A stretch of 64,000 bases of DNA. It comes from Rhizodiscina lignyota (lineage: Eukaryota). A program made the translations under genes and the position numbers. Of this stretch, positions 7,089 through 61,546 are shown piece by piece (position 1 is the first letter of the stretch; each line of letters opens with the position of its first letter). The notes below the pieces were generated by a model. The model searched no databases. It had not been told where the DNA came from and was given only the letters and a program-made list of their open reading frames with translations. Where the stretch lies: positions 1,612,001 through 1,676,000 of the forward strand of contig ML978126.1 of the NCBI GenBank assembly GCA_010015805.1, in the 5' to 3' direction.

Positions 7089-7118
7089 CCTGAGCTCAGG
7101 GCCCTCTGAGTATAAATA
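7089..7118 (+). promoter_or_regulatory. Promoter of U2-like copy 1: palindrome CCTGAGCTCAGG plus TATA box
   Basis: Perfect 12-bp palindrome at 7089-7100 and TATAAATA at 7111-7118, about 40 nt before the U2-like 5' end. The same arrangement recurs at 60238-60267. Confidence 0.65.
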
Positions 7119-7155
7119 CCTCCCACTCTTCCACCTTCCTCCTCTTTTCTTCTTC

Positions 7156-7346
7156 AGTTCTCTTTGCCTTTTGGCTTAGATCAAACGAAGATTTTGTTCT
7201 TCACAGTTTAATCTCTGTGACAAGACTACGGTCTTTTCCTTGATTATTCAAATATTTGGAACCGGGTGATGATTCTTTGGGCTTTGCTCCGAGGCTTCAA
7301 AGCCACAGTGTCGCCGGTATTGCACTATCTCCGGCCGACGCGAACC
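7156..7346 (+). ncRNA. U2 snRNA variant, copy 1 (branch-recognition sequence GAAGAU instead of GUAGUA)
   Basis: The 5' end TCTCTTTGCCTTTTGGCTTAGATCAA matches fungal U2, followed by TGTTCTT. Stem IIa CACAG-TTTAATCT-CTGTG; stem IIb AAGAC-TACG-GTCTT; IIc partner GATTA; Sm-like AATATTTGG; SLIII region; SLIV GCCGG-TATTGCACTATCT-CCGGC. Length about 190 nt, followed by a T-rich tract. Ends are approximate. Confidence 0.9.
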
Positions 7347-10300
7347 TCCTCACTCTTTGTTTTTTCAGTGCCTCGTCTGCCTTGCGCTGGCGATCATCGA
7401 AGAAACCTTTGAAATTTTCCTTTCAATTCCTGCTTTGAACTCCCTTGATCCCTATGCTACTATGATACAATGATACTTTCAGGCTATACCTTGTATCTGC
7501 TACCATCATACTATGCCCATGTTTCAGTTTAAACAGTGGCTGGTAAGGTAGGGAATGTGAGGCGGCTGGTAGATGTATTTTGCTGAGCGTGAGATCATTA
7601 CTATCAGCGGCGTCGTATGGGTTTACATAACAATGAGTAAATAAGACCCATAGCTTGTAGACGCACTGAAGCCTAAATGGTAGCTATACCAGGTATGCTT
7701 GATTGTAGGGCCGTGATATTCGTGTTCGAGTAAAGTAATTGAGCAAAACAGAATGTGAAGTCGTGAGCTACAGTCTTAAGGTGGGCTCCTTGCAGCCACT
7801 AGTGAGATCTAGCACTAGTTCCTCTCATGGAACATACATCTCTACATCTCTAAGAGCTTTAAATGCTGAAATAATATGTTGAGTTGACTGTCGGCTGTAG
7901 TTGTGGTGGTGATCAGAGAGTAGGAAAAGATGGTGTTGTGAACATCACAGCTGGAGGTGGCAGCGGCAATGTGTACATTTACTTTATTGTGCAGATCGGA
8001 AGATCTATCGTTAAGGAAGTTCTTAGTATCCTGTTATGCATCTCAACTACTTCGACGTTGATGTTGTGGGCAAGTGACTTCTTAGTAGTATTCTGCAGCA
8101 GTATTCTCGCGGTCCAGGCTCACCCACAAACTCGAATTTCGATGGTTATTATTGGCAAAAGACCCCCTCAGTTATAGTCTGGCGCTTCTATATTGAATTA
8201 AGATATATATGTCCATCTTTCAGCTAACCTCTGCGTAAGTAGAACGACAGAAAGCTTTCCATAACCTCCTTTCCTAGCCTTAATGCGACCGATTCCGTTG
8301 TAAACAACGCCGTCAGCCAGACGAGCAGCATATTTCAGACATGAGGAGTCTTTCAACATAGAAAGACGTCAAAATAACCTTTGACGAAGATAAGAACGAT
8401 AAATACTGGTACTGATTCGCCTACTCATAGCAGAATACCCATCGTCGCGATCGGTATCCTATACGCAAATCCAAAACAGTTTCCCATCCAGCGCCGCCTA
8501 ATTTATCCCCTCGGGAGCTCAGCTTTATATTCAACGAACTGATACACGCTGAGGCAGAAGACTAATACATCCCATATGCTAATGCGCTGCTAAAGCTTTT
8601 ACTTATCACAAACGACACCTTCGAAGCATAGTCTTGTCATCGGACCACACAAACACCATTCGAACTTCATTTCCAATCGCCACCTTTCTTTGTATCTTCA
8701 GTAATCCTCTGAAGATATTGAGCAGCATGCTGTCTTCCTATGCGGCTACACCAATCTTCAAAGCGATGCTTCTTGACTATGTTGACGAGTACAAGCTCAA
8801 GACGCTACTAAAATAACAAGATCTCAAACAGGTGACTTTACCTGAGCCTATCTCACTGGATGTTTGGCTGATTGAGACAGAATTCTACTCCCACCTCTTC
8901 CTCCATATTTGCAGCCCGAACTCGAATACACGGCACCCAGAAATACCTCGAACATAACAATCAACACCAAGTCTTGATAACTGGACTCGTGGCGCGGATT
9001 GACGCCGAATACCTTGCCTCTCCTCGAGCAATACACACCATATCTTCAGTCAAATGGAGTTCATGATCTAGACAACCACAAATTTGATAGTAACTTTGTG
9101 TCAGTATCTTCACTGGAGTCGAAGAGATACAACTTGACCTCCAAACTTTGGTCAATGAACTTAGAAGTCAATGTTGGCAGAAACAACACCGAAAATGGAC
9201 TGAAGAAGACAAGCTGGTACAGTTGAGGAGAGAGAAGAGAAATGGAAGCGTGATTGGGCAAGGACAAAGACATAACGCGCTGGGAAGCAAAAGTTTCTCA
9301 AACATGGAGCATTCCAGCCACGGACTTGGGATAATGGCCAAGGTACTCGCAGAGTAGTAGATAATGCTTCATTCTAAGTCTACTGCCCATTGCTAACTGC
9401 TGCTAGTAAATAGTTCCAGCTTCTCCTGACCATTTCCCACTGCAATTTAAATCCCCCTTCTGCATCCATCTCCTGCTCGAACTACAAATGTCATTTCTCC
9501 ATCCGGCGACTAGTACCCAGTGTAGAAGCGCATTTGCATCAAACGTGGGAGCAGATACAAACGCAGCTTTAGATTGAAGGCGTACTAGGCGGATAGAGTT
9601 AAACGGTCATGGAGTGGAAGAAGAACAGTTCTTAAGATTTTGAGCTAAACTGGCGTAGAGACTGTGGGCTTCGGAAGGAACACTTAGCGAAGCCATAAGT
9701 TAGACCGAGAAGCATGAGAAGAATGGAATGGTCTAGAGGAAGTTATGATCTTGCTCGGCAGGGGATATTACAGATCTAGCTGGTAAATTCTGACACGATC
9801 ATCATGTCTGGATAGACAATGTACAGCTATTCTACTAGCTTATCGTTGTACATCTAAGAAAATGACCAATGACGGTGTGGGAAAGCTACATCGGTGATGT
9901 CGAGAAGACCACTAGTATACCGATAACCACCTCCCCTTTGGAGGATGGTACGAGCCCTCTAGAACATCCTTCGCAAGCGTTAGAAGACGATGCCGAATTG
10001 ATTAGTCTACTTTGCAGTTATCTCTGTCAAGCGAATACCGCATTAGGTTAGCGCTTCCAATGTGAGGGCTCTTTGATGGTGCCTTGCTTGCATCCCACTA
10101 ATCGCGACCACCTTTGTGGCTCCCCAGCTACCACACTTCTATTCCAGGTCTTATTTTGATTTTGATTATCTTCTGCGGCATGCGGCGCTGCAGTGCGGCC
10201 CTTTTGCGATGGATCGGAGGCCGAACATCTTTGACTCGGATTACTGAACCGGAGCTACCGACTCGCAGCACAATTATACCTGACTCCAAGGTCGAAGAAC

Positions 10301-21314: not shown

Positions 21315-23453
21315 GATATTATTGGAGAGATGTTATTTCTGTTTGTGCTATAGGTCAGTGGAAATATCAACGGCTTCAATTTCATGACGACGAACCAATG
21401 TTGGAACCGTTCTTCTTGCGGCGAGACGGATCGTGGGAATTACCTACTGAACAACTCTGGGAAAGCCATGACATATGGACCTAATGCTCAAAAATGTGTG
21501 GGAGTTGTAGTGGTTCTCTGATTCAAGCCCGAAGATGAAGCTGTGGGTACTTGTATCTTGCACACTGACTGGCACAGAAGACTGGTCTGCTGGAACAAGT
21601 CGATATTGTATTCACGCTCGCGGCTCAGAGCTGCACAGAGGTTTTGAATTGAAGTTTGAATACAGCATACCCTTCAAAACTCGAGGTATTCAGCCATTGT
21701 CCCCTGTTGTTACACCATCTGACCTTTCATTTCAACCGTCTCTCCCTGTCTCAGTTGTTGCCCTTATTGTATTCGAAGCGGGGTTCTTGTCAAATTTGCT
21801 GTAGTGGCTTCTGGAAGGAACTGGATTGCCCTAAGCTGTGCTGCTGTAAGTTGATTGAATCGCCGCTGCATATTCCAAGCTAAATGACCGAATCTTTGCC
21901 TACGTACCTCATTTCTTATGCCTGGGATTCTTCGAGTCGCGTTCCATTCGCGATTTTAAATCCTCCGAGTCGCGTTCCAAGTTTGCTTTCAAGTTCTCCA
22001 GGTAGTGATGCTCGATAGATCCAGGAATAGGAGCACTCATCCTCATCGAGAAATTATGATATGCCTGTAAACCCATCTTCCACGAGAACCATGCTTCATG
22101 TAAACAGCTCAGTCGCCAGACTGGCTCACAAGGCACAAAATTACTGAAACTTTGGCCTTGTTTGATAGAGGATCGGTCCATTGTGCGGCTACACCTGCTT
22201 TGTTCAAGATTGTTTTGGATGTTGTTCTCGGTCGTCTGTATAAAGTCTTATCGTCAAGGAGGCAGGAGAGGAGAATGTACCTAGATTTGACATGGTGAGT
22301 GAGCAGATATCATAATGACTGTGGTGCGAGTGAAAATGCTATGTTACTCACGATGCGAACGTTGTCCCTGGTCGCGAGGTTTGCGCGATTTAACTTGGCT
22401 GTTATGATGAAAGCTTTTCCACTTCCAATCTCTGGCTAGACGTGAAGACTGGAACTTGCATAGCATTGACGAACAGGAAAGATCTTGTGAGAGTCCGCGG
22501 GATTCATTTGTCGCGAGGCTCTGGAGGTGTTGACTAGGGAACAGGCGCTCGACGCTCGACGCTGGTGAAAACTGAAGTCGTAACTATGGATTCTATGCTC
22601 AATTTCAAAGTAAATTACTCACGGATGATTTTGAAGCCAATTCTTGTACTGAGCTGTTGTTAGGCCACAGTCCTTATGTTTGTAAAGGTGCACGCGGCGG
22701 AAAGAGCTTCTATCGGCTGGAGTGAGCTAGTTTAAAGATGTAATCTACAGTTGACTGTACTTTGAAGCATTCGAGACACTCATATATGCATTATCCAGTA
22801 GTGAAGCTCTTGGAATTTAAATAATGAAGCGCAAAGGCTCAAAACGCTTTGTGGGCGCCCTTTTGCAGCCGTCGATTTTCAACACCAAGCTGACCAAAAT
22901 ATTCCAAAGTACCAACCTCCGAAAAGACTTCATTACACATAGAAATTTTGATAATCAGAAGCGCCCTTGCAGGTCTATGAAGGAATAAAGGTGAACTGAT
23001 AGGCATTCGTCTATTTAATAAGAGTCTTACTGCTAAAGCCTAACGCCAGCTGTTCTCAGCTTCAACCGTGATTCCTACCGTAACAACGCGCCCTAGAACA
23101 GCTCTAAAGCTCTCATAATAGTTCATAGCAGCACATGAGACTTATTAAAGACTTCATAATCGGTTCTATGACTAGGTCTACTCTACAATTTGGTATAAAC
23201 TAATGTAACTCAAGTGAGATTACGGCTACAGCGATAACAGCTACCTGCGTAAATGCATTACTCATGTTTCCAACTGCATATGCTCTACATTCAAGTATTG
23301 CCAGTTGCTAAACTTCCTATAATACGACATCTGGGTAGGTAGAGGGCTTGACAAGCTTAAGTATTGTTCAATGTTTAATCATAGTTCTTTGTGCTTTCTT
23401 CGCCATGCCCCTATACAAGACAGAGGAGATAGTGAAAAAGATGAAAGATTGAA

Positions 23454-23641
23454 GAGTCGCGTCAGCCGGAGATAGTGCAATACTGGCGACACTGTGAGAG
23501 ATAACATGCCTAAGGGCAGAGGAGACCTCTCGAGTTCAAAAGATTAGAATAATCAAGATATAAGACCGTAGTCTTGTCACAGAGATTAAACTGAGAAGAA
23601 CAAAATCTTCGTATAATCTAAGCCAAAAGGCAAAGAGACGT
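23454..23641 (-). ncRNA. U2 snRNA variant, copy 2
   Basis: The reverse complement reads ACGTCTCTTTGCCTTTTGGCTTAGATTATACGAAGATTTTGTTCTTCTCAGTTTAATCTCTGTGACAAGACTACGGTCTT..GATTATTCTAATCTTTTGA..GAGAG..TGCC-CTTA-GGCA..CTCTC..GTCGCCAG-TATTGCACTATCT-CCGGCTGAC. A TATA-like run lies at 23678-23687. Confidence 0.88.
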
Positions 23642-24335
23642 GAGGAAGAAAAGAGGAGGAAGGTAGAAGATTGCAGAATATATATATCAATAGGAACGTT
23701 GAGGAACCCCTAGAGGGCCCATAGCATCACCCTAGGAGACTAATAGCATCGGCTTCCAGCGGGGGTTATGGAGCCGCAGCACCTTGCTACACATTGCGTG
23801 CATCCTTCGATTGGCGTGGCTGTCTGCCGTGGCGGTGTCGGGCTAGGAAAGTTCAAATCTGCGCTTCTAAATGTTGAGATGTTGGCAATTATCGTACACA
23901 ACGCAACGCAGTAAAAATTGCAATCATATAGGAAGATTGGCCATAGTCGAAAGTATCTCGCATTAAATTTATAGAAAAAACGAACCACTATATGGGGAGT
24001 AAATGCTCCTGAAGAGAGGACTCTTCGACTCTCCATCGACCACCACACTTCCATTTTAGGCTAGGGATCAACAAGCGGAGGCTGGGGCGGAGCTACCCGC
24101 CGCTTGTGCGCCATTTTAGCTTTGTAGAAGGTCCGATGACACCCGAAATCACCTGTGAAGACACTGAGTGATACTCGCGGTTTCGGCAGACCAGCGTGGA
24201 CGCCCAGAGGGGGACCGGTAATTCGTACTTCCGGACCGAAACCCAAACCTTCACCCGCAGCACCAGTCATCGCCGCAGCTTTCGTCTGGCCTCTAGCCTC
24301 CATCAGAACGCTCATCTGGCCTATTTCCCTGCTCA

Positions 24336-29345: not shown

Positions 29346-29800
29346 ATGGACGCCTTCAACTCGAACCACTTGGTAGCACATGTGTCAAAGATATATTTGG
29401 GGTCAAATTTCAGATTCAAAGGGAGGTCTGTTCAACAGCTCCTTGCGACTTTGAAAGTTGACCCTGAATATGTCTTTGACACATGTGCTACTTACAAACA
29501 CACTCTGCGGGAGCTTTCTTTCGAAGCATTCCCACTGCAAGAGCATCACGTCGGTTTGGCCTGATCATTCGCCGAGGTTCCATCAAGGTCTCGCGCGATG
29601 TCTTCATCCCACACATCTATTTCACGTATCTCGATTTGGTTTCCGGGTACTACCCGTTGGAAAGAGGAGGATGCCCAGAAGTGGACTCGCACCTTCTCGT
29701 GGTGCTGGGCGTCAGTACTCCTGTCGGGCTTGCTGTCCCGCACAGGAGGAAGCTAAGACGAGTCCTGTTCGTGCTTGGTTGGCTTGCATGTCTCAGATAG
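29346..29800 (+). pseudogene. Possible frameshifted small hypothetical gene
   Basis: TATTTAAA and a CT-rich leader precede CACCATGG. Two overlapping ORFs (29334-29564 and 29483-29800) lie in different frames with no evident intron. Confidence 0.3.
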
Positions 29801-43300: not shown

Positions 43301-44201
43301 CTCTTGCCAGCAAAACCAACAAAGCTCAAGATGGAGCAAGACGAGCGCGGCATTGAAGACTACCCACTACCCCACTGACAGTCAAAAGTCGCGAAATCCT
43401 GTCTCGTGTATCTTGTCCAGTCCCTTGACAGACCTTCAATCGCTCTGCGATCCTCTTCGGCACGTCCCTTCCGCAGTCCTCCTCGTCTCTGTCATACTGA
43501 CGGCAAATTGAGAACATTACGATCATTAAGGCAGAAACACTCTTCCCCAATCAAAAAAGAGCACGGAACACTAATCATGAGCTGGATGAAGCATAAGAAG
43601 CACTTGCAAAGAGATGGGGCACAATTCCAATGGCGACACCAAGTATACCATTCCATGCATTGCCAAATGCGACAGCACTGCCAACAGTGCTTCCAAACTT
43701 CTCAGAAACACAACGAACGACTCTGCGAAAGTCTCTTCAGTTGGATCAGACCAGTTCTTTCTGTGAGATGCTTCATGTACAGTCGAGACGTTTCGGCCGA
43801 ACATCAAAGAGATGCGGAGCGATAGACGTACGACGACAATCCACAACGAAAGTTGTCATCATATTCCGACTTCCAAATTCCTTCAACATAAGGCCGACTT
43901 CCTGTTTTTGTGATCCCCCGGAAACCGAACAGTGACCGCCAACCGAACCGCGCTTGAACTACAACTCGAAAGTCAGCTCTAAAGTCACGGCCGTGATGAC
44001 AGTCAATCTCATTTGAGACATTGCATCTGAAGACGCCTGCCAACAGACCGCAAAAGCATCTGAAAAGGAGCGATAAGCCGCCTGAGAACGGTCCCGTACC
44101 AACCCAGCCGAGGTGCCCAGCCAAGGAGTGAGAAGGTACCCGCAGTTGGACAGCTGCAGTTGGGAATCCGCTTCAGTGGTAACCAAGCTCTTCTGGCAGT
44201 T

Positions 44202-44450
44202 CCATCCGCCATTCGGATTACCCCATCTCCCCCACCCGTATCACCATGTTATACCATCCGCCATTCGGACTACCCCGTGTCCCCCACACCATATTCACCT
44301 GGAAGCCTGGAGCCTCCATGTCCCGCGCACTTATCAGCGGGACCCGTATCAAACCTGTATTCCATCCGCCATTCAGACTACCCCATCTCCCCCACACCTT
44401 ATTCACCTGGGAACTGGAGCTCCCATGTCCCGCACACCTGTCACCAGGGG
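44202..44450 (+). repeat. Imperfect tandem repeat (one 52-bp partial unit and two ~108-bp units)
   Basis: CCATCCGCCATTCRGAYTACCCCRTSTCCCCCAC starts at 44202, 44254 and 44362. The two long units translate as IRHSDYP(V/I)SPTPYSPG. Confidence 0.85.
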
Positions 44451-60267: not shown

Positions 60268-60303
60268 CTCTCACTTTTCGACCTTCCTCCTCTTTTCTTC
60301 TTC

Positions 60304-60495
60304 AGTTCTCTTTGCCTTTTGGCTTTGATCAAACGAAGATTTTGTTCTTCGCAGTTTAATCTCTGTGACAAGATTACGGTCTTATTCTATTGATTATTCT
60401 AATATTTGGAACCGGCTTTGGTGGTTCAATGAGCTTGCTCATTTCCCATCGCACAGTGTCGCTGGTATTCGCACTATCTCCAGCTGACGCGACCC
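60304..60495 (+). ncRNA. U2 snRNA variant, copy 3
   Basis: AGTTCTCTTTGCCTTTTGGCTTTGATCAAACGAAGATTTTGTTCTTCGCAGTTTAATCTCTGTG...; Sm-like AATATTTGG; SLIII tip GAGCTTGCTC as in canonical U2; SLIV GCTGG-TATTCGCACTATCT-CCAGC. Confidence 0.9.
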
Positions 60496-61546
60496 TCTTT
60501 TTCATCTTTGGTTCCGCCTTGAGTGGGACAATGAGGAAGAAGATCTTGTCTCAAAAGTTCTCTTCAATCAGTCCAATTGTTTTCGCGTGCTTGCTCCTAT
60601 GCTTGCTTGCTATATCCTTTGCTTACTTACTTGCTATGCCTGCAGCAATTTTGTTGTCATGTTAAGGCTTGTGGCTTGGTGTGGAGGCTCATTTGTGGTC
60701 TTTAAGAGGCCTGTTCGAGAAAGCATGGCATTTTGATAAATAGATAGATAGATCAGGACCAACTATGAAGAAGCCTTGAAATGCAAATAAAAGCAGGAGT
60801 ACTCTTTCATTAGCTTAAACTTTGGGCCTACTTCTGCCTTGTGCTTATTGCTAGTGTGGTAGTAGTCCGTCGATTCCCATAACAACGTGTATGAATTGCA
60901 CCATCTCTACGCCCTCCACGGCCTGTTCCCTAGAGCAGGAAAACCACTGATCCCAAAGCATATGGACTGACAGTTCAGGATTCAGATATCAGTTCATGAG
61001 TTCGTTTGCCTCAAAGCATTGATTGTCATCTATCTGTTGCCTGACCCTTTCGTCGCTACTGCCATTGCACATCGCGCTACAGGAGCTGGCATACACCATC
61101 AGCACATAAACGCACTCAATCAAGGCCGGAATCCCTATGTTGGGTAGAACTGCTTGCTTTGGTTGGTAGAAGCAACGAATGGTCATCATATCCATGAATC
61201 TGCTCTGCTGACTTCATTTGTAGTCTCGCGTCGGGCCACTCCCGTATGTTACAGTAAAATAAACACCAAAACGCCACGCCCATTTCTTCCAGGTTGCAGC
61301 TCATTAAGTGCAAATCCACAGGACTGCGAAAGACGGTGATAAGCCCGTTACCATTCTCTTATCGGCCTTTCAAGCCCATTACAAGTTTGATCTCGCAGTA
61401 AGATCTCTTCTTGTTTCCGCTGCCACCATGGGTGATGGGTAAGTCTGCTCTCCCAAAGGCGCTAAACATCCAATAGTTCGTGTTGAATTCCTATAGCCAA
61501 ATCTGACAAGTCTCCCAACTTCAAAGGCCAGAAACTGCCACTCCCC

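What the first reader, a model, noticed from the sequence alone, without database searches (positions are those of the whole stretch)
7179..7199. Substitutions around the variant sequence preserve the branchpoint-interacting stem-loop
Seen: GAUCAAA-CGAAGAU-UUUGUUC can pair G-C, A-U, U.U, C-G, A-U, A-U, A-U. The canonical sequence in the same register has an A.C mismatch and a G-U at the last two positions. Inference: the flanking changes keep or strengthen the BSL stem and expose GAAGA in a 7-nt loop, which looks more like reprogramming than random decay.
Basis: inference. Interest (0 to 1): 0.7.

Follow-up and report, generated by a model that had tools for sequence, protein, structure and literature searches.

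The report
Reshaped branchpoint stem-loop in variant U2
Three copies of a fungal U2 spliceosomal RNA gene share the same rewritten intron-recognition sequence, and the changes beside it still allow the usual hairpin to form, but nothing shows that selection acted on the hairpin itself.

Summary
[quoted passage not shown] All three read ACGAAGAUUUUG where U2 normally reads GUGUAGUAUCUG.

Compared with the published human BSL:
- the variant gains A30-U40;
- G31.U39 becomes A31-U39;

That is 6 pairs before and 6 after. Energy in that register is +0.3 versus +2.2 kcal/mol.

The case for selection on the stem is weak:
- it is one evolutionary event;
- 9 of 81 random substitution sets do as well;
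- copy c weakens the stem (+3.2 to +5.1);
- a competing GAAGA:UCUUC hairpin (-3.6) is predicted in all three copies.

"Reprogramming, not decay" is supported by other evidence. Flanks and stem-loop III (SL III) are 30-43% identical, yet SL III folds in each copy. Leader, 5' domain and SL IV stay 85-100% identical.

Window introns use CTRAY (8 of 11), so a canonical U2 should exist elsewhere. I found no expression data, no targets and no relatives.

The parts
7154..7349 (+). U2 snRNA paralog, copy a (mature 5' end probably A7156)
   Evidence: Rfam RF00004, 106.8 bits, model 1-192 of 192. The 5' end is inferred from the alignment to the model.
7179..7199 (+). BSL segment of copy a (human numbering G25-C45): the finding
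   Evidence: register taken from PMC13019295 passages.
7187..7192 (+). Variant branchpoint-recognition hexamer GAAGAU in place of GUAGUA
   Evidence: cmscan alignment to the U2 consensus; identical in all 3 copies.
7187..7202 (+). Competing predicted hairpin G33AAGA37 : U44CUUC48 with a 6-nt loop
   Evidence: -3.6 kcal/mol, 10 of 200 shuffles fold as well. It is in the RNAalifold consensus of the 3 copies and all 5 pairs are invariant.
7201..7220 (+). Stem-loop IIa; its first two pairs (U47, C48) overlap the competing hairpin
7111..7118 (+). TATA box (TATAAATA), about 45 nt upstream of the presumed RNA start
   Evidence: TATAWATA in all 3 copies.
7126..7155 (+). Pyrimidine-rich leader between the TATA box and the U2 5' end, 87-93% identical among the copies
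7265..7305 (+). Stem-loop III of copy a: sequence diverged among the copies, fold kept
   Evidence: 35-43% identity; -16.0 kcal/mol, z -2.69.
60302..60498 (+). U2 paralog, copy b; BSL segment 60327-60347 identical to copy a
   Evidence: Rfam 101.3 bits.
23451..23642 (-). U2 paralog, copy c; BSL segment 23598-23618 reads GAUUAUACGAAGAUUUUGUUC (C28U, A30U)
   Evidence: Rfam 98.2 bits.

Best explanation
The 21 nt are the BSL and branchpoint-recognition segment of one of at least three long-diverged U2 snRNA paralogs of an ascomycete. All three carry the same rewritten recognition sequence, G33-A-A-G-A-U38 instead of GUAGUA, plus G31A, U32C and C40U beside it.

Shown:
- The genes are full-length U2 homologues.
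- The U6-pairing nucleotides (GCU..GAUC) are intact in copies a and b.
- A TATA box, a conserved leader, SL IIa/IIb, a near-consensus Sm site and SL IV are present.
- SL III has changed sequence but kept its fold in each copy.
This pattern points to purifying selection on working RNA genes, including the variant recognition sequence.

Inferred:
- They make a minority U2 snRNP that pairs with branch sites of the form AUCUU-A-C(G), with the A bulged, rather than the CURAY sites used by ordinary introns of the same window. A canonical U2 elsewhere in the genome should serve those ordinary introns.
- The variant can still form a BSL, reshaped from 2+2+2 bp with two 1x1 mismatches and a 5-nt loop to 2+4 bp with one mismatch and a 7-nt loop that presents GAAGA.
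- Under the toehold strand-invasion model, extra pairing next to the loop raises the demand for branch-site complementarity. That would help keep such a U2 confined to its own targets.

Whether the flank changes were fixed for the stem, for extended pairing with the target, or by chance is open.
For: - Three RF00004 matches at 98-107 bits, each covering model positions 1-192. No other Rfam family reaches E <= 1.
- ACGAAGATTTTGTTC is found exactly 3 times, against 0.17 expected.
- Identity by region: far upstream 30-37%, SL III 35-43%, 3' flank 41-55%; leader 87-93%, 5' end and SL I 87-96%, BSL 90-100%, SL IIa/b 86-88%, SL IV 85-89%.
- SL III folds in each copy at z -2.3 to -2.9 and shows both-sides-changed pairs (6 of 47 predicted pairs).
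- BSL register energy is +0.3 for a/b against +2.2 for canonical. All 8 of 8 metagenomic U2 genes examined have the canonical 2+2+2 architecture with a mismatch at 30:40.
- Only 2 of the 6 changes (G31A, C40U) are the C-to-T/G-to-A transitions of repeat-induced point mutation, read from the alignment (what counts as RIP-type is recalled).
- 8 of 11 strict intron candidates in the window have CTRAY near the 3' end, against 10% of random 40-mers.
- Toehold model and the effect of an added loop-proximal pair (M1): PMC13019295, passages.
Against: - No expression evidence of any kind. No canonical U2 of this organism was seen.
- No candidate target was found: ATCTTAC occurs 5 times against 5.5 expected. 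None of the 11 candidate introns has CTTAY. Several ATCTTAC sites are simply the antisense of GTAAGAT donors.
- Copy c weakens the BSL: U.G at 28:42 and U.U at 30:40, +3.2 to +5.1 kcal/mol.
- In a/b the BSL-register pairs have about 6% probability in the isolated 21-mer, against about 15% for canonical, because a shifted hairpin competes.
- In context the GAAGA:UCUUC hairpin is equal or better: -12.3 vs -11.8 in a, -12.6 vs -11.6 in b, -10.4 vs -3.3 in c.
- U34A removes the uridine whose pseudouridylation is described as the one conserved in all organisms analysed (PMC4950102 passage).
- The Sm sites are off consensus: UAUUUGG in a and b, AAUCUUUUGA in c.
- Conservation of the 5' blocks by gene conversion among variant copies cannot be excluded.
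- The stem argument rests on one evolutionary event with chance probability of about 0.11 to 0.31.
Confidence: 0.55

Rival explanations
1. The selected structure is not the BSL. It is the hairpin G33AAGA37:U44CUUC48, which buries the recognition sequence. On this reading U34A and U37A were fixed because they pair with U47 and U44, and C48 pairs with G33. The variant U2 would then be self-masked: a decoy or regulated reservoir for U2 proteins, or a particle that needs a helicase or partner to open.
For: - The hairpin scores -3.6 kcal/mol, with 10 of 200 shuffles as good.
- It is the structure chosen by RNAalifold for the three copies and by every single-copy MFE.
- Its pairs are untouched in copy c, where the BSL is damaged.
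- Three variant-specific states (A34, A37, C48) all form Watson-Crick pairs in it, read from the alignments.
Against: - All 5 pairs are invariant, so there is no covariation.
- The register was chosen after the fact.
- C48 is already explained by a compensated C-G pair in SL IIa.
- Canonical U2 also prefers non-BSL folds as naked RNA and needs proteins to hold the BSL (PMC13019295 passage), so naked-RNA energies decide little.
Confidence: 0.2
2. These are decaying or inert U2 pseudogene copies descended from one mutated founder. The shared variant sequence is simple inheritance, and the conserved blocks are kept alike by gene conversion among copies. On this reading the BSL-compatible pairs are coincidence.
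For: - No RNA evidence.
- Chance gives the two new pairs in 9 of 81 cases.
- Copy c has changes at the U6-pairing C28 and in the Sm site.
- A further copy outside the window differs at 14 of 73 aligned letters, including G36, U38 and U41, so some family members do decay.
- The Sm sites are off consensus.
Against: - Divergence is strongly patterned by function: 35-43% in SL III against 85-100% in the functional blocks on either side.
- SL III keeps its fold in all 3 copies despite that divergence.
- The TATA box, leader and 3'-flank motifs are conserved outside the RNA.
- Six changes are packed into 12 nt of an otherwise near-canonical 5' domain.
- Conversion tracts would have to skip SL III repeatedly.
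Confidence: 0.15
3. The variant is the organism's only U2, and its branch sites have co-evolved with it.
For: No canonical U2 was seen in the window.
Against: 8 of 11 strict intron candidates carry canonical CTRAY and 0 of 11 carry CTTAY. CURAY cannot pair its R with A34.
Confidence: 0.03

Closest known systems
Canonical U2 snRNA (Rfam RF00004) and its branchpoint-interacting stem-loop
   Same: Full-length homology and the same domain order. The lower BSL stem is the same: G25-C45, A26-U44, U27.U43, C28-G42, A29-U41. The U6-pairing GCU..GAUC is the same in copies a and b.
   Different: The hexamer is GAAGAU, not GUAGUA. The upper BSL is rebuilt: 30:40 is paired instead of the A-C bulge, 31:39 is A-U instead of G.U, and 32:38 is unpaired. 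The loop has 7 nt instead of 5. The U34 pseudouridylation site is gone. All 8 of 8 metagenomic U2 genes checked keep the canonical BSL architecture. The first description of the BSL (Perriman and Ares 2010) is recalled and was not read here.
Engineered orthogonal or suppressor U2 snRNAs (U2-Ortho of Stevers, Katzman and Jurica 2026, PMC13019295; older suppressor work by Parker/Guthrie, Wu/Manley and Zhuang/Weiner is recalled only)
   Same: A U2 with changed recognition nucleotides that should serve only introns with matching branch sites, alongside wild-type U2. BSL pairing next to the loop tunes how much complementarity is needed (passages).
   Different: Those are laboratory constructs with 2-3 changed letters. 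Here the change is natural, spans six positions, is present in several genomic copies, and has no known target.
Trypanosomatid U2 snRNA
   Same: A natural U2 in which GUAGUA is replaced (UUAUAA in Leishmania major; PMC4950102 passage).
   Different: There it is the organism's own U2 in a lineage with divergent splicing. Here the variant appears to sit beside a canonical system, because the window's introns use CTRAY.
Variant snRNA genes of animals (e.g. human U2 and U1 variants; PMC8457000 and PMC10870369, seen as search listings and abstracts only)
   Same: Multi-copy snRNA families with expressed sequence variants that may form variant spliceosomes.
   Different: From the abstracts seen, those reports do not describe a rewritten branchpoint-recognition hexamer conserved among paralogs.
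U12 snRNA of the minor spliceosome
   Same: A second branch-site-pairing snRNA with its own purine-rich recognition sequence serving a private class of introns (recalled; PMC3201867 seen as abstract only in the listing).
   Different: U12 is a separate RNA family with its own U6atac partner. The RNAs here are U2 homologues that keep the U6-pairing nucleotides.

Membership tests
U2 snRNA (RF00004), by homology | Covariance-model score above the curated gathering score over the full model | tested here: met
   106.8, 101.3 and 98.2 bits against 46, model positions 1-192 of 192 for all 3.
U2 snRNA, by function | Branchpoint-recognition hexamer GUAGUA | tested here: not met
   GAAGAU in 3 of 3 copies. 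I therefore file these as U2 homologues with a non-canonical recognition sequence, not as canonical U2.
U2 snRNA, by function | U6-pairing nucleotides of helix Ib/Ia (GCU..GAUC) | tested here: met
   GCUUAGAUC in a, GCUUUGAUC in b, GCUUAGAUU in c, where C28U would give G.U. U6 itself was not available to test pairing.
U2 snRNA, by function | Sm site RAU3-6GR (consensus as quoted in PMC4950102) | tested here: inconclusive
   AAAUAUUUGGAA in a and b, AAUCUUUUGAA in c: near but not on consensus.
U2 snRNA, by function | Stem-loops I, IIa, IIb, III and IV | tested here: met
   cmscan structure lines. SL III and SL IV fold in each copy.
U2 snRNA, by function | Transcribed, capped, Sm-bound RNA present in spliceosomes | not testable with these tools
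   No RNA data could be obtained (see Tried and rejected).
Branchpoint-interacting stem-loop | Base of stem G25-C45 and A26-U44, U27.U43, C28-G42, A29-U41 | tested here: met
   Identical letters in a and b; c has U28.G42. Pair list from PMC13019295 passages.
Branchpoint-interacting stem-loop | Upper stem A30/C40 bulge, G31.U39 and U32-A38 closing a 5-nt loop | tested here: not met
   The variant has A30-U40, A31-U39 and C32.U38 with a 7-nt loop. Copy c has U30.U40.
Branchpoint-interacting stem-loop | The stem-loop actually forms in the snRNP, held by SF3A3/SF3B1/HTATSF1-type proteins | not testable with these tools
   Naked-RNA energies do not favour the BSL even in canonical U2 (+2.2 kcal/mol; PMC13019295 passage).
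Branchpoint-interacting stem-loop | Pairing conserved or covarying among related variant genes | tested here: inconclusive
   2 of 3 paralogs are identical and 1 of 3 is weakened. There is no covariation, and no orthologues were found.

The most novel reading that the evidence does not exclude
A natural orthogonal U2 system: a fungus keeps a subfamily of U2 snRNA genes whose branch-site reader has been rewritten to GAAGAU and whose BSL has been re-tuned (four contiguous pairs under a 7-nt loop). These particles would ignore ordinary CURAY branch sites and splice, or block, a private set of introns with AUCUUAC-like branch sites. That set could be a regulated gene set or a self-propagating intron family.
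Probability: 0.3. Interest if true: 0.9.

Novelty: new variant of a known kind. Interest (0 to 1): 0.65.

Why it matters
GUAGUA and the BSL arms are among the most constant RNA sequences in eukaryotes. Specificity-swapped U2 snRNAs are known to me only as laboratory tools.

If these paralogs are expressed, they would be a natural case of a second branch-site code inside the major spliceosome. They would also be a natural experiment on how BSL strength and loop size are matched to a new recognition sequence. [quoted passage not shown]

If they are silent, they are an unusually well-kept pseudogene family and the BSL match is coincidence.

Seven full-text searches found no report of such natural U2 variants in fungi. 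Subscription-only papers were not searchable.

Tried and rejected
- **Whole genome:** none is held for this window, so no census of U2 genes and no search for a canonical copy or for targets was possible.
- **Sequencing runs:** one holder only (X1, contigs, kind unknown). No RNA holder is listed, which says nothing on expression.
- **Contigs of X1 laid at 80% likeness:**
  - Four unitigs account for all depth over the recognition sequence: the 88-nt unitig identical to copy a, copies b and c, and a further copy on record 1.
  - No contig with GUAGUA was laid. The tool drops human-like records silently, and a canonical U2 5' domain is human-like, so this hole proves nothing.
  - Summed word depth is far higher over the leader and 5' end (about 3360) than on the long single-copy contigs (about 155). 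The tool warns that this is not a copy number.
- **Earlier findings of this scan:** by place, sequence and words nothing. By 'U2 snRNA' only other genomes.
- **Metagenome scan** for any U2 with a non-U at position 34: 8 loci, all U2 by Rfam. All are single-letter variants (GCAGUA or GAAGUA) with canonical BSL arms. None has this variant.
- **Genome-contig scan** for the variant: 0.
- **Loose regular-expression intron model:** no enrichment of any branch motif, canonical or variant, so it was uninformative. The loose ORF-joining screen (149 candidates) was mostly false positives. I replaced it with the strict screen (11 candidates).
- **Target motifs:** ATCTTAC (5 sites), TCTTACG (4) and perfect complements. 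The only perfect complements are the U2 genes' own antisense strands, and no convincing intron context was seen.
- **The 2-mismatch hit at 974-988:** it lies in a protein-kinase ORF and is chance.
- **RIP as the cause:** rejected, because 4 of 6 changes are not RIP-type transitions.
- **Sole-U2 reading:** rejected on the CTRAY count.

Full report
**What is at the coordinates.** Window 7179-7199 (+) reads GATCAAACGAAGATTTTGTTC. It lies inside a full-length match to the U2 spliceosomal RNA model RF00004: 7154-7349, 106.8 bits against a gathering score of 46, model positions 1-192 of 192. Two more full-length U2 matches are in the window, at 60302-60498 (+, 101.3 bits; copy b) and 23451-23642 (-, 98.2 bits; copy c). 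A permissive scan (E <= 1) finds no other RNA family.

All three copies read ACGAAGAUUUUGUUCUUC where the U2 consensus reads GUGUAGUAUCUGUUCUU. The 15-mer occurs exactly 3 times against 0.17 expected. A fourth hit with 2 mismatches (974-988) lies in a protein-kinase reading frame and is chance. Relative to the consensus there are six substitutions in 12 nt. In human numbering, with G25 = 7179, they are G31A, U32C, U34A, U37A, A38U and C40U. The rest of the 5' domain is close to canonical.

**The observation.** That is correct.

I took the canonical BSL from passages of Stevers, Katzman and Jurica 2026 (PMC13019295). These give G25 at the base of the stem, a U27/U43 'U-U interaction', an A30/C40 'A-C bulge', and G31 and U32 as the paired residues next to the loop.

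The tally is one pair gained (30:40), one wobble upgraded (31:39) and one pair lost (32:38), so 6 standard pairs before and 6 after. The architecture changes from 2+2+2 bp with two single mismatches and a 5-nt loop to 2+4 bp with one mismatch and a 7-nt loop.

Nearest-neighbour energies in this register are +2.2 kcal/mol for canonical, +0.3 for copies a and b, and +5.1 for copy c (+3.2 if only four pairs are drawn). Eight metagenomic U2 genes give the same +2.2 and the same architecture. These genes were a biased sample, picked for a non-U at position 34. In 2 of the 8, position 30:40 has changed (A.G, G.A) yet remains a mismatch.

**Is it more than chance?** No.
- I held A30 and U39 fixed and replaced positions 31, 32, 38 and 40 with any other base. 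9 of 81 combinations pair both 30:40 and 31:39. 25 of 81 keep at least two of the three upper pairs.
- The three copies inherited the changes together, so this is one event.
- The isolated 21-mer of a/b folds no better than shuffles (119 of 200 at least as good), and its MFE is a shifted hairpin.
- BSL-register pairs have about 6% probability there, against about 15% in the canonical 21-mer.
- Copy c carries C28U (a U.G wobble) and A30U (a U.U mismatch). One of three paralogs therefore has a weaker BSL than canonical U2.

**A rival fold.** G33AAGA37 is exactly complementary to U44CUUC48. The 16-mer hairpin scores -3.6 kcal/mol, with 10 of 200 shuffles as good. It appears in the RNAalifold consensus of the three genes with all five pairs invariant, and in every single-copy MFE.

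With SL I and SL IIa drawn in, the BSL version and the rival version score -11.8 and -12.3 in a, -11.6 and -12.6 in b, and -3.3 and -10.4 in c. Because canonical U2 also needs proteins to hold its BSL (PMC13019295 passage), these naked-RNA figures cannot decide. They do show that 'exposes GAAGA in a loop' is only one of two readings.

**Why this is still not random decay.** I aligned the three genes with flanks and scored them region by region.

| Region | Pairwise identity |
|---|---|
| Far upstream | 30-37% |
| SL III | 35-43% |
| 3' flank | 41-55% |
| Leader between TATA box and RNA start | 87-93% |
| 5' end and SL I | 87-96% |
| BSL segment | 90-100% |
| SL IIa/IIb | 86-88% |
| Linker and Sm region | 78-96% |
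| SL IV | 85-89% |

- Despite its sequence divergence, SL III forms a two-part stem-loop in each copy: -16.0, -10.7 and -13.8 kcal/mol, with 4, 6 and 3 of 200 shuffles as good.
- RNAalifold counts 6 of 47 predicted pairs with both sides changed.
- A TATA box (7111-7118) and a nearly invariant pyrimidine leader precede each gene, and short motifs are shared downstream.
- The only repeats in the window longer than 36 nt (53-nt arms) are these U2 units.
- Only 2 of the 6 substitutions are of the transition type produced by repeat-induced point mutation (read).

This is the pattern of old paralogs under purifying selection as RNA genes, with the variant recognition sequence conserved as well as the rest of the functional 5' domain. 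Gene conversion confined to the conserved blocks is the alternative, and I cannot exclude it.

**Context.** The surrounding reading frames encode a protein kinase, MFS and sugar transporters, an NmrA-like protein, a nitronate monooxygenase and an amino-acid permease. The permease's nearest clusters are ascomycete.

A strict screen for short introns gives 11 candidates. The criteria were a GTRHGT donor, length 42-110 nt, an in-frame stop inside the candidate, and at least 60 open codons on each side. Eight of the 11 have CTRAY 5-45 nt from the 3' end, against 10% of random 40-mers. None has CTTAY, against 4%. CURAY cannot pair its R with A34 of the variant. I therefore infer that a canonical U2 serves these introns and is encoded elsewhere.

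Laying the contigs of the single holder run on 7100-7400 gave the following:
- U2-like pieces lie on several other contigs, including a second place on the 22.5-kb contig that runs off the window's start.
- That further copy differs from copy a at 14 of 73 letters, including positions 36, 38 and 41.
- An 88-nt unitig identical to 7148-7235 has about 2.7 times the depth of the long contigs.

The family therefore has members beyond the window, and at least one looks more decayed than a, b or c.

**Mechanism proposed (inferred).** The variant keeps the U6-pairing nucleotides, so it could enter the normal catalytic core. With the branch adenosine bulged as in the canonical helix, G33-A-A-G-A-U38 would pair with AUCUU-A-C, and C32 with a following G.

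In the toehold strand-invasion model, an added pair next to the BSL loop (the human M1 mutant) slightly lowers use of imperfect branch sites and widens the advantage of a fully complementary one (PMC13019295 passage). The natural A30-U40 and A31-U39 pairs could act in the same way and keep the variant off ordinary introns.

Against this:
- U34A removes the uridine whose pseudouridylation is described as conserved in all organisms analysed (PMC4950102 passage).
- The Sm sites are slightly off consensus.
- I found no target. ATCTTAC occurs 5 times against 5.5 expected, and several sites are merely the antisense of GTAAGAT donors.

**Comparison with what is known.** By homology these are U2 genes. 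By the functional hallmark GUAGUA they are not canonical U2.
- The nearest natural precedent I could document is trypanosomatid U2, with UUAUAA in Leishmania major (PMC4950102). There the divergent RNA is the organism's own U2.
- The nearest functional analogue is the engineered orthogonal U2 used with matched reporters (PMC13019295).
It is a different lesion in a different lineage, and I did not test it.
- Seven full-text searches returned no description of natural U2 paralogs with a rewritten hexamer in fungi.
- A scan of 241 million metagenome records for U2 genes with a non-U at position 34 returned 8 loci, none with this variant. A scan of prokaryote genome contigs returned 0.

**Verdict.** The pairing is real, and the variant is BSL-compatible in two of three copies. 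The claim that the flank substitutions were fixed to preserve the stem is neither shown nor excluded. The broader inference holds on independent grounds: this is a maintained, re-targeted U2 rather than a decaying one. That inference is the interesting part, but it lacks expression data, targets and orthologues.

Noticed in passing
window 7126-7155, 60274-60303, 23641-23670 (-): A pyrimidine-rich leader (ACCTTCCTCCTCTTTTCTTCTTCAG-like) between the TATA box and the U2 5' end is 87-93% identical among the three copies, while sequence further upstream is unalignable. It ends in a 3'-splice-site-like YYYCAG and contains UCUUC, the complement of the variant GAAGA.
   Followed up: partly
window 7350-7450 and the equivalent flanks of copies b and c: Short shared motifs lie downstream of the U2 3' end (TTTTTCA about 15-25 nt after the gene, then CTGCCTTG and GAAGAA). 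They may be 3'-end formation signals.
   Followed up: no
outside the window, about 10.8 kb beyond its start (record 1 of run X1): A further U2-like copy sits on the same contig in the opposite orientation. It differs at 14 of 73 aligned letters, including positions 36, 38 and 41 of the recognition region, and is followed by a consensus-like AAUUUUUUG Sm site. Other contigs carry more U2 5' ends with different upstream sequence, so the family is larger than the three copies seen here.
   Followed up: partly
window 7201-7220 and equivalents: Position 48 is C in all three variant copies, where the Rfam consensus and all 8 metagenomic U2 genes have A or U. It forms a compensated C-G pair in SL IIa and also closes the rival GAAGA:UCUUC hairpin.
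   Followed up: partly
L001-L008 (metagenome contigs): Eight U2 genes carry a single change at position 34 (GCAGUA in six loci, two of them identical, and GAAGUA in two). Several sit on contigs of 4-38 kb, mostly with plant or alga-like 5' ends. Point variants of the 'invariant' hexamer therefore do occur in environmental eukaryotes.
   Followed up: partly
window 29373-29491: Inverted repeat with 53-nt arms, 83% complementary, 13 nt apart. It could be a hairpin or a small foldback element.
   Followed up: no
window 44200-44395: Three copies of a 36-nt C-rich direct repeat, 89-94% identical, at spacings of 52 and 108 nt.
   Followed up: no
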